Shown here: positions 58,861-64,000 of the stretch, in pieces
Layout: each line of letters begins with the position of its first letter
How positions within the stretch are numbered: the first letter of the stretch is position 1
Assembly: GCF_045037415.1 (NCBI RefSeq)
Contig: NZ_CP173438.1
Direction: 5' to 3' (one strand)
Origin: Escherichia coli
GTDB lineage: Bacteria > Pseudomonadota > Gammaproteobacteria > Enterobacterales > Enterobacteriaceae
DNA length: 64,000 bases
Made by a program: the position numbers and the translations under genes
Notes under the pieces: generated by a model
Database searches by the model: none
Told to the model about the DNA's origin: nothing
What the model saw: only the letters and a program-made list of their open reading frames with translations

Positions 58861-59796
58861 TCAAAGCATTTCCCGTGCCTGAGCTGCAATTCCGGCAGCA
58901 TCAAATCCATGATGCTGACGCAACCACCCACGATCCGCCGCTGCGGCATATTCTCCATCCATAATGCCTGCGCGTTTTAATGTGATCCCCGTTCCGGCCT
59001 CTGCCAACACTTCCGCGACCAGGCTACCAAGGCCGCCATTGACGTTATGCTCTTCAACCGTCATCACTGCTTTGCATCCTTTTAACGCTGCCAGCAATGC
59101 TTTGGTGTCGCATGGGCGAATCGACGGTACGCTGACAACTGTAGCCGCGATACCAGACTGCGCTAAAAGTTCTGCGGCATCGACCACTTCATGAACGGTA
59201 GAGCCTGTGGCTACCAGCGCCAGTTCGCTGCCCTCGCGCAAAGTCACCACGGCACCTGGTACAAATCGGTAGTCCTCATCGTGGATTTCCGGCAGGGCTT
59301 TACCGTCCATACGGATATAAACAGGCCCCTGATAGCGAAGAGCATAATCAATCACCTGACGGCACTCCCGCGGTGAAGACGGGGCAAAGATTTGAATATT
59401 GCCGAAACCACGCATAACCGCAATGTCATCAATCGCATGATGCGTGCTCGCCAGCGGTCCATAACTCGCCCCGGCATTCAGACCGAACAATTTTACGTTG
59501 GTAAAGTTGTAGCAGACATCAACCTTGATTTGCTCGTTAGCGCGAGCGATAAGAAACGGCGCGGCATTGCAGGTAACAGCCACCTTGCCGCCCAGCGCCA
59601 GCCCGGCAGCTGTACCAACCATGCTCTGTTCGGCAATACCCACATTCACCAGTCGGTCAGGGAATTGCTTAATAAAGGGAGCAATTTTTGCCGTAGACGT
59701 TGAATCAGCCACCACAGGCACCAAATCGATCCCCTCATTTACGGCATCGATAAACGCCTGAACCATCACATTTGCCAGATGTTCACTGTTACGCAT
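58861..59796 (-). CDS. transketolase C-terminal subunit (pyrimidine-binding and C-terminal domains)
   Basis: 311 aa from ATG at 59796 (MRNSEHLAN...), which overlaps the upstream gene's stop as ATGCGTAA; sequence typical of split-transketolase C-terminal subunits. Confidence 0.75.
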   Translation of the reverse strand: MRNSEHLANVMVQAFIDAVNEGIDLVPVVADSTSTAKIAPFIKQFPDRLVNVGIAEQSMVGTAAGLALGGKVAVTCNAAPFLIARANEQIKVDVCYNFTNVKLFGLNAGASYGPLASTHHAIDDIAVMRGFGNIQIFAPSSPRECRQVIDYALRYQGPVYIRMDGKALPEIHDEDYRFVPGAVVTLREGSELALVATGSTVHEVVDAAELLAQSGIAATVVSVPSIRPCDTKALLAALKGCKAVMTVEEHNVNGGLGSLVAEVLAEAGTGITLKRAGIMDGEYAAAADRGWLRQHHGFDAAGIAAQAREML

Positions 59797-60619
59797 CTTT
59801 GAGTTCCTCCAGTGCCTGTTCAATTTCATCGCCTTTCGGCACCCGGTGATGCCATTCCGCACGCCCTTGTATAAAGGAAATGCCTGCCCCTTTAGTGGTG
59901 TGGGCAATCACCACATTCGGTTTGCCTTCCTGTTTAAGCTCTTCAAGCGTCGCGACAACCGAAGCCATATCATTGCCCTGACATTCAGTAACCTGCATAC
60001 CGAATGCCAGCCATTTCTCTGCCAGAGGATCGGTGTTCATGATTTCGCGCGTTGGCCCGGCTAATTGCAGATTATTTTTGTCATTAATAATGACCAGGTT
60101 ATCAAGCCCGTAATGCGCCGCCGCCAGTGCAGCTTCCCAGTTACTGCCCTCAGCCAGCTCACCATCGCCAGTAATTAAGAAGATACGACGACGGCTTTGA
60201 CTTTTTTTCGCCGCCAGCGCAAGTCCTACAGCCACAGGGAAACCATGCCCCAGTGCTCCGGTATTCAGTTCAATACCTGGCGTTTTTTGCCGAACCGGAT
60301 GGCCGGGTAAGTGTGAATTTGGCTGCTGATAAGTGGAAAGCCATTCCAGTGGGAAGAATCCTGCTTCCGCCAGCACGCAGTAGTAACATCCAACAGCATG
60401 GCCTTTTGACTGAATGTATATATCCCGGTCATCGTCGTGAAGGCGATCCGGTGCGACATTGAGAATACGAAAATAGAGTGCGGTCAGTAATTCAACCTGA
60501 GAGAGATCGGCCCCGGTGTGTCCACCTGCCGGGCTATTGGCATTTAAGCGCACGATATGGCGGCGTACCGCCCGCGCTTTACGCTCAAGGGTCTGGATAT
60601 CATAGCTATAGGGATTCAT
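59789..60619 (-). CDS. transketolase N-terminal subunit (thiamine-diphosphate-binding domain)
   Basis: 276 aa; GDG...N TPP-binding signature (FLITGDGELAEGSNWEAA). Confidence 0.8.
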   Translation of the reverse strand: MNPYSYDIQTLERKARAVRRHIVRLNANSPAGGHTGADLSQVELLTALYFRILNVAPDRLHDDDRDIYIQSKGHAVGCYYCVLAEAGFFPLEWLSTYQQPNSHLPGHPVRQKTPGIELNTGALGHGFPVAVGLALAAKKSQSRRRIFLITGDGELAEGSNWEAALAAAHYGLDNLVIINDKNNLQLAGPTREIMNTDPLAEKWLAFGMQVTECQGNDMASVVATLEELKQEGKPNVVIAHTTKGAGISFIQGRAEWHHRVPKGDEIEQALEELKDA

Positions 60620-60981
60620 TTAATACCTCTGAATTTATTTTCAACATGGAATATTTATTCCACCGGGGACTAAAAAAACCAGAAATCCCAGGGCGTTGCG
60701 CGGCAAGACTTACGCTGCTGCATCATACTCAGGAACATTCTGCCTCCTTACACCGTCAGTTACATGTCCGGGTAATCATCAGTTGACCTGATATCATCTT
60801 GAATATATATTCAATAATGATTCTTTATTCAATTATGCCGCCTGTTTTTTATTTTTGTCCATCGCTGATTTTAAGGATTGGTTAAAGTTAGAACTCCATC
60901 ACACTTAACTGTCTTCTTTTTTCGCGTATGATAAAAGCCTCTAAGATAAGGGCGGTACGTTAATGATTTACGGGGAAATAT

Positions 60982-62282: not shown

Positions 62283-63803
62283 ATGTTTGCAGGAAATAAA
62301 GAGTTCGTTATTGCGTTGGATGAGGGTACCACCAATGCAAAAGCCATCGCACTTGATGGTTTCGGTAACGTGGTGGCGAAGTTTTCTCAACCACTGGCTA
62401 TTCAGACGCCACGTGAAGGCTGGGTTGAGCAATCCGGGGAAGCGTTAATCTCTGCCTCGCTTGATGTTATTGCCCAGGCCATCAACCACGTGGGGGCAGA
62501 AAATGTAGCGGCTCTGGCTATCAGTAATCAGCGTGAAACGGCTATCGGCTGGTATCGTCAGAGTGGAAAACCACTCAATGCGGCGATTACCTGGCAATGC
62601 ACGCGCAGTGCCGAGTTTTGTGAAACACTGCGTCGCGAGGGCAAAGAGCAGCAAATTAAAACGACTACGGGTCTTCCTATCGCCCCGCTATTTTCCGCGT
62701 CCAAGATGCGTTGGCTACTGGAATCTACACCTGAGGGTGTGCAACTTGCCGACCAGGGTGAAATTTGTCTCGGCACCATTGATGCCTGGTTGCTATGGAA
62801 CTTGACTGCTGGCGATTCATTTTGCTGCGACTACTCTAACGCCGCGCGAACTCAATTACTTAACCTGAAAACAGGCGAGTGGGATGAGGAAATGCTGGCG
62901 TTGTTTCACATTCCACGCGCTGCATTGCCAGAAATTAAACCTTCCAGTGGCCTGTTCGGTTATACCCGAGGGCTTAAAACAATTCCGGATGGTATTCCCG
63001 TCATGGCGATGGTGGGCGATTCTCACGCCGCTCTTTTTGGTCATGCGTTGGGAGAAGCGGGATGTGTGAAAGCGACCTATGGGACCGGTTCTTCCGTCAT
63101 GGCCCCCGTCAACTCTGCTCAGTGTGATATCGCCACACTTGCCACAACCATTGCCTGGCATGATGGCGAAAATATTATTTACGGTCTGGAAGGAAATATC
63201 CCCCACACCGGCGATGCCGTGGCATGGATGGCTGACAGCACCGGTTTAAGTGAACTGACAGACGCGGAGCTGGCCCTCGAACTGAATACCCTGCCAGCCT
63301 CAGTGGATTCGACTATGGGTGTTTATTTTGTTCCTGCTCTCACTGGCCTGGGCGCGCCATGGTGGGATGACAGCGCTCGCGGCGTGGTGTGTGGCTTAAG
63401 CCGTGGCGTAAAGCGCGCGCATTTGATTCGTGCCGCACTGGAATCAATCACTTATCAAATTGCAGATGTAGTGGAGGCAATGCAACAGCATGATGATTTT
63501 CACTTATCGGCGTTAATGGTGGATGGCGGCCCGACCAAAAATGACTGGTTGATGCAATATCAGGCGGATCTGCTGGGTTGCCCGGTGATGTGCAGTGATG
63601 TGCCAGAGCTTTCAGCCATTGGTGCGGGCCTGCTCGCCCGCAAAGCGCTTATCCCCGGTACCGTTGCAGATTTAAAAGCGTTATTAACTGAACACAGTGA
63701 ATTTAAACCGGACATGGCGCGTCATCAGCGACTGCAAAAGAGATGGCAGGAGTGGCGTCATGCGGTAAACAGAACATTATGGAAACCGGCATCGTCAATT
63801 TGA
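62283..63803 (+). CDS. FGGY-family carbohydrate kinase
   Basis: 506 aa; AGGAG SD; FGGY kinase motifs (ALDEGTT, TYGTGS). Confidence 0.8.
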   Translation: MFAGNKEFVIALDEGTTNAKAIALDGFGNVVAKFSQPLAIQTPREGWVEQSGEALISASLDVIAQAINHVGAENVAALAISNQRETAIGWYRQSGKPLNAAITWQCTRSAEFCETLRREGKEQQIKTTTGLPIAPLFSASKMRWLLESTPEGVQLADQGEICLGTIDAWLLWNLTAGDSFCCDYSNAARTQLLNLKTGEWDEEMLALFHIPRAALPEIKPSSGLFGYTRGLKTIPDGIPVMAMVGDSHAALFGHALGEAGCVKATYGTGSSVMAPVNSAQCDIATLATTIAWHDGENIIYGLEGNIPHTGDAVAWMADSTGLSELTDAELALELNTLPASVDSTMGVYFVPALTGLGAPWWDDSARGVVCGLSRGVKRAHLIRAALESITYQIADVVEAMQQHDDFHLSALMVDGGPTKNDWLMQYQADLLGCPVMCSDVPELSAIGAGLLARKALIPGTVADLKALLTEHSEFKPDMARHQRLQKRWQEWRHAVNRTLWKPASSI

Positions 63804-63906
63804 CGAACAAGACTAACCAACGTAAGGAGAATACCGGCCCATAAATAATTCAGGCTTTACGTTGTTTCACCGTACCCGACAATAACAACACAGAGAGAAC
63901 ATTGTC

Positions 63907-64000
63907 ATGAAATTACGTTTAACACTGTTAACCGCTGCGACCCTGACTGCTCTTTCTTTTTCTGCTCATGCGGTAGAAAAAGGAACCATTATGATTATGG
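63907..64000 (+). CDS. periplasmic substrate-binding protein, N-terminus only (3' end outside window)
   Basis: ORF begins MKLRLTLLTAATLTALSFSAHA with a signal-peptide-like sequence; only 31 codons in window. Confidence 0.4.
   Translation, partial: MKLRLTLLTAATLTALSFSAHAVEKGTIMIM

What the first reader, a model, noticed from the sequence alone, without database searches (positions are those of the whole stretch)
58861..64000. Accessory carbohydrate locus downstream of entD: split transketolase, SorC regulator, FGGY kinase, binding protein
Immediately after entD the K-12 reference (from memory) carries hokE/IS186 and then ybdK. This window instead has a minus-strand operon of transketolase N- and C-terminal subunits (translationally coupled, ATGCGTAA overlap), a divergent SorC-family regulator, an FGGY sugar kinase and the start of a secreted binding protein. 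The gene content suggests uptake, phosphorylation and transketolase-dependent conversion of a pentose, pentitol or tetrose-like substrate. The substrate is not evident from sequence and the locus extends beyond the window.
Basis: partly seen in the sequence, partly recalled or inferred. Interest (0 to 1): 0.6.

Follow-up and report, generated by a model that had tools for sequence, protein, structure and literature searches.

The report
Known D-apiose utilisation island beside entD
The genes after entD are real and intact, but they are the already published D-apiose (plant branched pentose) utilisation cluster of the pandemic E. coli clones ST131 and STc14, so the finding is correct but not new.

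Summary
After entD the window carries aptB (58861-59796, -) and aptA (59789-60619, -), overlapping by ATGCGTAA. A SorC-type regulator (60982-61932, +), an FGGY kinase (62283-63803, +) and the start of a periplasmic binding protein (63907-64000) follow. K-12 has only IS186B, hokE and sokE at this position. The window is 100% identical to ST131 genomes. In those genomes the locus continues with DUF2291, ABC ATPase, permease and two SDR oxidoreductases, about 11.1 kb in all. This is the D-apiose degradation cluster described in J Bacteriol 2026 (PMC13001218). That paper builds on Carter et al. 2018 and shows that cluster-positive strains grow on D-apiose while K-12 does not.

The likely pathway is uptake, conversion of apiose to apulose, phosphorylation by AplK, then cleavage by the AptAB transketolase. 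The substrate is no longer unknown.

My additions are modest:
- In 86 related loci the SDR pair never co-occurs with either of two isomerase types. This supports the paper's idea that the SDRs replace the apiose isomerase.
- A conserved palindrome, GAATAT(A/T)TATTC, lies upstream of transcription units of the cluster and is probably the regulator's operator.
- I mapped the island boundaries.

The parts
58200..58859 (+). entD, the flanking gene. Homology to K-12 stops at about 58700, so its last ~160 bp belong to the variable segment. EntD here is 219 aa against 206 aa in K-12, and the last ~45 residues differ.
   Evidence: Annotation of the identical ST131 record. blastn breakpoints against K-12.
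58822..58845 (.). G+C-rich hairpin that looks like a terminator on the minus strand, 16 nt after the aptB stop. It lies inside the last codons of entD. The convergent genes entD and aptB are separated by a single base.
   Evidence: Terminator scan. Sequence.
58861..59796 (-). aptB, the transketolase C-terminal subunit (Pyr and C domains, 311 aa).
   Evidence: NCBIfam transketolase models match profile positions ~338-623 only. It is 72% identical to the P. carotovorum counterpart and 81% to the Salmonella one. Equivalents of E411 and H473 are kept.
59789..60619 (-). aptA, the transketolase N-terminal (ThDP-binding) subunit, 276 aa.
   Evidence: NCBIfam. The best PDB hit is the split-chain transketolase 6YAK, E 2e-74. 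It is 79% identical to the P. carotovorum protein. Equivalents of H26, H66, H100, D155, N185 and H261 are kept.
59789..59796 (-). ATGCGTAA overlap between the aptA stop and the aptB start (translational coupling).
   Evidence: Sequence. An 8-nt ATGxxTAx/TGA overlap is present in 74 of 86 related loci.
60631..60660 (.). Operator-like pair 30 bp upstream of aptA: GAATTTATTTTC (weak copy) and GAATATTTATTC, 18 bp apart start to start.
   Evidence: Motif search. Repeat families D1 and D2. A site at the same place in 5 orthologous loci.
60801..60830 (.). Operator-like pair in the divergent promoter region: the perfect palindrome GAATATATATTC plus the weaker GATTCTTTATTC 18 bp downstream.
60783..60811 (+). 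Sigma-70-like promoter (TTGACC, 17 nt, TATATT) pointing at the regulator gene. Its -10 hexamer lies inside the palindrome at 60801-60812.
   Evidence: Promoter scan. This is a consensus match only.
60832..60861 (-). Sigma-70-like promoter (TGGACA, 18 nt, CATAAT) pointing at aptAB. Both operator-like pairs lie downstream of it.
   Evidence: Promoter scan. This is a consensus match only.
60982..61932 (+). SorC/DeoR-type sugar-binding transcriptional regulator, 316 aa.
   Evidence: Pfam PF04198, E 6.5e-62, with weak N-terminal HTH hits. NCBIfam B. subtilis DeoR and LsrR models. It is 70% identical to the Pectobacterium regulator and 88% to the Salmonella one.
62143..62173 (.). Operator-like pair about 110 bp upstream of the kinase gene. 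It is the 90% reverse complement of 60800-60829 and contains the perfect palindrome at 62161-62172.
   Evidence: (inverted repeat I1).
62283..63803 (+). FGGY (GlpK-like) kinase, called aplK (apulose kinase) in PMC13001218, 506 aa.
   Evidence: NCBIfam GlpK model, 493 bits, below the cut-off of 590. PDB glycerol kinases. It is 44% identical to the Pectobacterium kinase and 39% to K-12 GlpK.
63907..64000 (+). 5' end (signal peptide) of the ABC transporter substrate-binding protein. The full gene is 311 aa and runs past the window end.
   Evidence: Annotation of the identical record. The best PDB hits are 5IBQ and 4RY0, E 2e-79, 49% identity.

Best explanation
The region is the first half of an 11.1-kb, 10-gene D-apiose utilisation cluster. 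The genes are aptB, aptA, a SorC-type regulator, aplK, a binding protein, DUF2291, an ABC ATPase, a permease and two SDR oxidoreductases. The cluster sits between entD and the hokE/ybdK region in E. coli ST131 and STc14.

Proposed mechanism, with shown and inferred steps marked:
1. D-apiose from plant cell walls is taken up by the ABC transporter (inferred).
2. It is converted to the ketose apulose. In this variant the two SDRs probably do this by reducing apiose to D-apiitol and re-oxidising C2 of the polyol. The Pectobacterium cluster uses the isomerase ApsI for this step (inferred).
3. The FGGY kinase AplK makes apulose 4-phosphate (inferred from homology and gene context).
4. The two-subunit, ThDP-dependent transketolase AptAB transfers the C1-C2 unit to glyceraldehyde 3-phosphate. 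The products are xylulose 5-phosphate and DHAP. This is the chemistry of MetaCyc PWY-8089 as I recall it from Carter et al. 2018.
5. The SorC-type protein probably represses aptAB, its own gene and the kinase-transporter operon by binding the GAATAT(A/T)TATTC palindromes. It would be released by an intermediate common to all variants, such as apulose or apulose 4-phosphate (inferred).

What has been shown experimentally is only this: Escherichia strains with the cluster grow on D-apiose as sole carbon source and K-12 does not (PMC13001218).
For: - The window is identical to ST131 chromosomes, and one search gives the full gene list.
- PMC13001218 describes this 10-gene cluster (ECSF_RS02670-02715, with aplK, aptA and aptB) downstream of the enterobactin genes. 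It finds the cluster in 100% of complete STc131 and STc14 genomes. It reports growth on D-apiose of E. fergusonii, two ST131 strains and an ST1193 strain, but not K-12. It also notes that apsI is missing and two oxidoreductase genes are present.
- Compared with the P. carotovorum reference cluster, AptA is 79% identical, AptB 72% and the regulator 70%.
- The ThDP, Mg and catalytic residues are intact.
- The split and the 8-nt overlap are conserved in 74 of 86 loci.
- In 86 AptA-linked loci, SDR1 plus SDR2 occur in 34, ApsI in 7 and a Fucose_iso_C-type isomerase in 26. The SDR pair never occurs together with either isomerase type.
- The E. coli-type kinase (68-77% identity) occurs with the Fucose_iso_C isomerase in 14 loci; 11 of these also carry the Pectobacterium-type binding protein. 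This indicates that it phosphorylates the ketose.
- The reaction D-apiose + NADH <-> D-apiitol is a recorded reaction, KEGG R03577 (PMC1686944).
- The palindrome has 3 exact sites in the 64-kb window, all in the two intergenic regions of this locus.
- Across 86 loci the palindrome has 215 sites inside cluster spans, all of them upstream of genes, against 4 sites in 786 kb of flanking sequence.
Against: - No knockout or enzyme assay exists for the E. coli genes. The growth data are a correlation across strains.
- The kinase is only 44% identical to the Pectobacterium kinase, barely more than its 39% to GlpK.
- The binding protein is 45% identical to the Pectobacterium one and 49% to the PDB 5IBQ protein. 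The Pectobacterium protein is 75% identical to 5IBQ.
- The order and cofactors of the SDR steps are unknown.
- I could not read Carter et al. 2018, so the enzymology is taken from PMC13001218 and from memory.
Confidence: 0.85

Rival explanations
1. The SDR-type cluster is primarily for another substrate, such as D-apiitol, erythritol or another small polyol or ketose. Growth on D-apiose would then be a side activity or would depend on other genes.
For: - Both SDRs resemble polyol, butanediol or galactitol dehydrogenases.
- One source names the binding protein an 'erythritol transport system substrate-binding protein'.
- The kinase and transporter are only 44-54% identical to the Pectobacterium ones.
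- A Salmonella variant keeps only SDR2 and has an MFS transporter.
Against: - Four cluster-positive Escherichia strains grow on D-apiose and K-12 does not.
- The transketolase and regulator are 70-80% identical to the reference apiose cluster and share the same operator motif.
- The same kinase type is paired with an isomerase in 14 loci, 11 of which also carry the Pectobacterium-type binding protein; that protein is 75% identical to 5IBQ.
Confidence: 0.08
2. Apiose is the substrate, but the route is kinase-first. One SDR reduces apiose to apiitol, the GlpK-like kinase phosphorylates the polyol, and the second SDR oxidises apiitol phosphate to apulose 4-phosphate. This would resemble the Brucella erythritol pathway (my own knowledge).
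For: - The kinase is GlpK-like. It scores 493 bits on the glycerol kinase model and is 39% identical to GlpK, a polyol kinase.
- It is only 44% identical to the Pectobacterium kinase.
Against: - In 14 loci the same kinase type (68-77% identity) is combined with a Fucose_iso_C-type isomerase and no SDR. No polyol would be formed in those loci.
- The Salmonella variant has only one SDR.
Confidence: 0.05
3. The split transketolase is an extra general pentose-phosphate-pathway transketolase, or the two ORFs are a disrupted transketolase pseudogene, with unrelated sugar genes alongside.
For: - The N-terminal subunit keeps all canonical ThDP and catalytic residues.
- As I recall, Salmonella has a split transketolase (TktC) that contributes to the pentose phosphate pathway.
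Against: - In 86 loci the two genes are nearly always embedded with the same regulator, kinase and transporter, and share the operator.
- The split and the 8-nt overlap are conserved in 74 of 86 loci, and all homologues are about 276 aa.
- The canonical residues for binding the phosphate of C5-C7 sugar phosphates are not matched in the C-terminal subunit.
Confidence: 0.02

Closest known systems
D-apiose degradation cluster of E. coli STc131/STc14 and E. fergusonii (PMC13001218, J Bacteriol 2026)
   Same: It is the same locus: the same 10 genes, the same position downstream of the enterobactin genes, and a window sequence 100% identical to ST131 genomes.
   Different: Nothing differs in the DNA. 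The main text of the paper never uses the word 'regulator'. It gives no co-occurrence test for the SDR hypothesis and does not map the junctions.
D-apiose transketolase pathway cluster of Pectobacterium carotovorum (Carter et al. 2018; MetaCyc PWY-8089)
   Same: It has a split transketolase (79% and 72% identity), a SorC-type regulator (70%), an FGGY kinase, an ABC transporter with a DUF2291 protein, and the same palindrome upstream of the operons.
   Different: Pectobacterium has the PF01261-type isomerase ApsI and no SDRs. Its kinase, binding protein, ATPase and permease are only 44-54% identical, and the gene order differs.
Oxidoreductive aldose-to-ketose conversion, as in fungal xylose reductase plus xylitol dehydrogenase (my own knowledge)
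   Same: Two dehydrogenases replace an isomerase by passing through the polyol. D-apiose/D-apiitol oxidoreduction is a recorded reaction (KEGG R03577).
   Different: This is an analogy only. The enzymes here are SDRs of unknown specificity, and no activity has been measured.
Split-chain transketolase of Carboxydothermus hydrogenoformans (PDB 6YAK)
   Same: The enzyme has a two-gene architecture. It is the best solved relative of AptA, E 2e-74.
   Different: It is not linked to apiose genes as far as I know. In my alignment, the residues that bind the substrate phosphate in one-chain transketolases (R358, S385, H461, R520) have no identical counterpart in AptB.
Salmonella enterica locus between tktA and cmtBA (L004, L005)
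   Same: These are the closest non-Escherichia/Citrobacter relatives: TK 85% and 81%, regulator 88%, kinase 72%, SDR2 87%, with the same palindrome at three promoters.
   Different: It has an MFS_2 transporter in place of the ABC system, lacks SDR1, and sits at a different chromosomal site.

Membership tests
D-apiose transketolase-pathway cluster (PWY-8089) | Split transketolase AptA/AptB orthologous to that of the reference cluster | tested here: met
   79% and 72% identity to the P. carotovorum proteins, which lie in the cluster with the PF01261 isomerase.
D-apiose transketolase-pathway cluster (PWY-8089) | Apulose kinase AplK (FGGY family) | tested here: inconclusive
   An FGGY kinase is present, but it is only 44% identical to the Pectobacterium kinase against 39% to GlpK. 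Gene context supports the same role, because this kinase type occurs with an isomerase and AptAB in 14 loci.
D-apiose transketolase-pathway cluster (PWY-8089) | D-apiose isomerase ApsI | tested here: not met
   No homologue is present in the E. coli locus (tblastn). Two SDR genes stand in its place, as PMC13001218 also notes.
D-apiose transketolase-pathway cluster (PWY-8089) | Apiose-binding periplasmic protein | tested here: inconclusive
   49% identity to the PDB 5IBQ/4RY0 protein. That 5IBQ is an apiose complex is my recollection and could not be checked here.
D-apiose transketolase-pathway cluster (PWY-8089) | Growth on D-apiose that depends on the cluster | not testable with these tools
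   PMC13001218 reports growth of cluster-positive strains and none for K-12. No knockouts have been made.
Two-subunit (split) transketolase | Separate N-terminal (PF00456) and Pyr/C-domain genes with intact ThDP and catalytic residues, conserved as separate genes in relatives | tested here: met
SorC/DeoR-type sugar-binding regulators | N-terminal HTH plus a PF04198 sugar-binding domain | tested here: met
   PF04198, E 6.5e-62, with weak HTH hits at residues 14-52. NCBIfam B. subtilis DeoR and LsrR models.
Mobile genomic island | Integrase or transposase, tRNA target, flanking direct repeats, deviant base composition | tested here: not met
   No mobility gene lies inside the 11.1 kb. Coding G+C is 0.49-0.55, similar to the flanks. 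The same or a related cluster lies next to entD in Citrobacter, Klebsiella, Raoultella and Kosakonia. Divergence from C. amalonaticus is 78.7% nt for the cluster against 76.2% for the ent flank.

The most novel reading that the evidence does not exclude
The two SDR genes at the far end of the cluster, just outside the window, form an oxidoreductive bypass: D-apiose to D-apiitol to apulose. This bypass replaces the apiose isomerase. If so, it would give gene identities to the D-apiose reductase activity (EC 1.1.1.114), which was described in 'Aerobacter aerogenes' around 1970 and has, as far as I know, no assigned gene. In addition, the conserved GAATAT(A/T)TATTC palindromes would be the operator of a SorC-type apiose repressor shared by all variants of the pathway.
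Probability: 0.5. Interest if true: 0.4.

Novelty: already known. Interest (0 to 1): 0.22.

Why it matters
The cluster is a lineage marker and a probable gut-niche trait of the two most recently emerged pandemic ExPEC clones, ST131 and STc14. It lets them use a plant cell-wall pentose that most E. coli cannot use. That point has already been made and tested by growth assays in PMC13001218.

Two questions remain open: the enzymology of the SDR step and the regulation of the cluster. The co-occurrence pattern and the operator motif found here make both directly testable. These would be incremental advances.

Tried and rejected
- Carter et al. 2018 (PMC6435334, DOI) and the 1970 apiose reductase paper could not be retrieved. 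The pathway chemistry and the 1970 enzyme therefore rest on PMC13001218 and on memory.
- The ligand of PDB 5IBQ could not be confirmed from the held papers.
- A K. aerogenes contig carrying aptAB was too short to show its neighbours.
- Rfam found nothing inside the locus. The only hits were REP-like elements between fepA and entD.
- The neighbour-joining tree of kinases has a single outgroup, so it cannot test whether the two kinase types form one clade.
- I looked in the island for a remnant of the K-12 entD 3' end and found none.
- 'Disrupted transketolase pseudogene' was rejected.
- 'Recently acquired mobile island' was rejected.
- 'Kinase-first route', with apiitol phosphorylated before oxidation, is disfavoured but not excluded. 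The same kinase type works alongside an isomerase in 14 loci.
- 'General pentose-phosphate transketolase' was judged unlikely. The genes are nearly always embedded in the kinase, regulator and transporter cluster, and canonical phosphate-binding residues are not matched.
- An ST131 + transketolase literature search found no further paper on this locus.
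Full report
**Observation.**
The ORF list and the sequence confirm every element of the finding. Window 58000-64000 is 100% identical to many ST131 (O25b:H4) chromosomes. I used the annotated record NZ_CP015085 as locus L001, where window coordinate = L001 coordinate + 43999.

- entD ends at 58859.
- One base later, on the opposite strand, lies the transketolase C-terminal subunit (58861-59796, 311 aa).
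- The N-terminal subunit is at 59789-60619 (276 aa). Its stop overlaps the start of the C-terminal subunit in ATGCGTAA.
- A divergent SorC-type regulator is at 60982-61932, with Pfam PF04198, E 6.5e-62.
- A GlpK-like FGGY kinase is at 62283-63803.
- The signal-peptide end of an RbsB-like binding protein starts at 63907.
- Beyond the window the locus continues with a DUF2291 protein, an ABC ATPase, a permease and two SDR oxidoreductases. IS421, two hokE copies and ybdK follow.

**Absence from K-12 and boundaries.**
K-12 MG1655 has entD, IS186B, hokE, sokE and ybdK, with none of these genes. Homology between K-12 and the ST131 record stops inside the 3' end of entD, at L001 14701 (window 58700). 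It resumes at L001 25818, seven bases after the SDR2 stop. At that point both genomes share the hairpin-forming sequence TTCGCCCGCAGCCATCACTGACCRCGGGCGAA, which directly follows entD in K-12. So about 11.1 kb replaces 139 bp of K-12. The last ~45 residues of EntD differ between the two strains (219 aa against 206 aa). 630 of 5426 complete E. coli genomes carry at least 80% of the 6-kb query.

**What it is.**
A literature search found the locus already described. PMC13001218 (J Bacteriol 2026) names a 10-gene 'D-apiose degradation gene cluster' (ECSF_RS02670-02715 in strain SE15). Its genes include aplK, aptA and aptB, and it lies downstream of the enterobactin genes. The paper reports the following:

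- The cluster is present in 100% of complete STc131 and STc14 genomes, in about a quarter of E. fergusonii genomes, and in a few other B2 sequence types.
- E. fergusonii ATCC 35469, two ST131 strains and an ST1193 strain grow on D-apiose as sole carbon source. K-12 does not.
- The Escherichia version lacks the apiose isomerase gene apsI of the Pectobacterium reference cluster (Carter et al. 2018). It carries two putative oxidoreductases that the authors hypothesise replace apsI.

I could not retrieve Carter et al. 2018.

**Independent checks of homology.**
- The P. carotovorum homologue of AptA lies in a cluster of binding protein, DUF2291, ATPase, permease, TK-N, TK-C, FGGY kinase, a PF01261 protein and a SorC regulator.
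- Identities of E. coli to Pectobacterium are AptA 79%, AptB 72%, regulator 70%, kinase 44%, binding protein 45%, ATPase 47%, permease 54% and DUF2291 26%.
- The transketolase and regulator are therefore clear orthologues. The kinase and transporter are distant versions. The kinase is 39% identical to K-12 GlpK.
- The binding protein's best solved relatives are 5IBQ and 4RY0 (R. etli) at 49% identity. The Pectobacterium binding protein is 75% identical to that chain. That 5IBQ is an apiose complex is my recollection only.
- AptA keeps the equivalents of TktA H26, H66, H100, D155, N185 and H261. AptB keeps E411 and H473.
- The canonical phosphate-binding residues R358, S385, H461 and R520 have no identical counterpart in the E. 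coli, Pectobacterium or Salmonella proteins. This alignment is at low identity and needs caution.

**Not a broken gene.**
All close homologues of AptA are stand-alone proteins of about 276 aa. In 74 of 86 related loci the two genes overlap by the same 8-nt ATGxxTAx/TGA arrangement. A split-chain transketolase structure exists (6YAK).

**Survey of related loci.**
I scanned one genome per GTDB species with an AptA alignment and scored 86 loci in all by tblastn.

| Solution for the aldose-to-ketose step | Loci | Where |
|---|---|---|
| SDR1 + SDR2 | 34 | Escherichia, Klebsiella, Raoultella, the Citrobacter amalonaticus group, Serratia, Trabulsiella, Cedecea, Mixta, Samsonia, one Marinomonas |
| PF01261 isomerase ApsI | 7 | Pectobacterium, one Pantoea |
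| Fucose_iso_C-type (PF02952) protein | 26 | Yersinia, Kosakonia, Phytobacter, C. braakii, Mangrovibacter and others |
| SDR2 only | 1 | Salmonella locus L004 |
| None detected | 18 | Some contigs are truncated. Pantoea ananatis has only regulator, TK and kinase. |

- The SDR pair never co-occurs with either isomerase type. This is what one expects if the three are alternative solutions to the same step, and it supports the hypothesis of PMC13001218.
- The E. coli-type kinase (68-77% identity) occurs with the Fucose_iso_C isomerase in 14 loci. In 11 of them the Pectobacterium-type binding protein is also present. So it most likely phosphorylates the ketose rather than the polyol.
- D-apiose + NADH <-> D-apiitol is a recorded reaction (KEGG R03577; PMC1686944).
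- Oxidising the only secondary alcohol of apiitol would give apulose. This is chemical reasoning, not a measurement.
- SDR2 has an Asp after strand beta-2 (VVCFDL), which suggests NAD. SDR1 has TGACRGIG and no such Asp, which suggests NADP. This is inference from general SDR rules.

**Regulation.**
- The palindrome GAATAT(A/T)TATTC has three exact sites in the 64-kb window, at 60649, 60801 and 62161. All three lie in the two intergenic regions of this locus. Allowing one mismatch and counting both strands, the search returned 6 matches against 0.46 expected by chance.
- Each site is accompanied 18 bp away by a weaker copy. The 30-nt unit at 60800-60829 is 90% complementary to 62144-62173.
- A promoter-like site for the regulator (60783-60811) has its -10 hexamer inside the palindrome at 60801.
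- The same palindrome lies upstream of the transcription units in the Pectobacterium, Salmonella, Citrobacter, Serratia-like and Yersinia loci.
- Over 86 loci there are 215 sites inside cluster spans. All are upstream of aptA, the regulator, the kinase, the binding protein or an SDR gene, and none is in coding sequence. The 786 kb of flanks hold only 4 sites.
- I infer that this is the operator of the SorC-type regulator. The regulator and motif are shared by all variants, so the effector is probably a shared metabolite: apiose, apulose or apulose 4-phosphate. The main text of PMC13001218 never uses the word 'regulator'.

**Origin.**
- C. amalonaticus has the same 10 genes in the same place next to entD.
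- The cluster is 78.7% identical in nucleotides over 11.1 kb. The neighbouring ent genes are 76.2% identical.
- Klebsiella and Raoultella carry the SDR type next to entD. Kosakonia, Phytobacter and C. braakii carry the Fucose_iso_C type next to entD.
- No mobility gene lies inside the segment, and its G+C content is like the flanks.
- This fits an old association of apiose genes with the ent locus followed by losses, in line with the paper's 'ancient acquisition followed by losses'. It does not fit a recent mobile island.

**Verdict.**
The locus is already known. My additions are the co-occurrence evidence, the operator motif and the mapped junctions, all of which are incremental. Interest is low to moderate.

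Noticed in passing
window 58700-58859 (entD 3' end) and 58822-58845: EntD of this strain has a different and longer C-terminus than K-12 EntD (219 aa against 206 aa, last ~45 residues diverged). Its last codons run through a G+C-rich hairpin that also looks like the terminator of the convergent aptAB operon. Only one base separates the two stop codons.
   Followed up: partly
window 58035-58141: Rfam hits to ES036, naRNA4 and Ysr224 lie between fepA and entD. ES036 scores 42.2 bits, above its gathering score. These look like REP-type repeat elements rather than dedicated sRNA genes.
   Followed up: no
L001 25818-28161 (beyond the window end): Downstream of the cluster, IS421/IS186 lies in the opposite orientation to K-12 IS186B. 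The hokE module is present twice. The hairpin-bearing segment that follows entD in K-12 is also present twice (L001 25818-25931 and 27670-27760), which suggests an IS-associated duplication.
   Followed up: partly
L004 and L005 (Salmonella enterica), 3847-11762: The closest Salmonella relative of the cluster sits between tktA and the cmt PTS genes. It has a kinase, an MFS_2 transporter, SDR2 only, a regulator and the split transketolase, with the same palindrome at three promoters. Its substrate may be apiitol or another compound.
   Followed up: partly
L010 13279-14700 (Yersinia), and L048, L049, L077, L083 and others: In 26 loci a 473-aa Fucose_iso_C-type (PF02952) protein occupies the place of the apiose isomerase. 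This may be a third, non-homologous solution for the isomerisation step. In L061 the gene is split into two ORFs and is probably a pseudogene. I could not check whether Carter et al. already described it.
   Followed up: partly
L042, L045, L053 (Pantoea allii, P. ananatis, P. stewartii): These are minimal loci with only the regulator, the split transketolase and the kinase. No transporter, isomerase or SDR lies nearby.
   Followed up: no
AptB, window 58861-59796: In my alignment to TktA, the residues that bind the substrate phosphate in one-chain transketolases (R358, S385, H461, R520) and D469 have no identical counterpart. The same holds for the Pectobacterium and Salmonella proteins. This may reflect the unusual donor, apulose 4-phosphate. 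The alignment is at low identity.
   Followed up: partly
L023 (MAG labelled Sporobacter termitidis) and L035 (Martelella alba): Enterobacterial-type SDR clusters, 84-89% identical in AptA, appear in records assigned to a Firmicute MAG and an alphaproteobacterium. L023 also has an entD neighbour. This is probably mis-binning or contamination rather than transfer.
   Followed up: no
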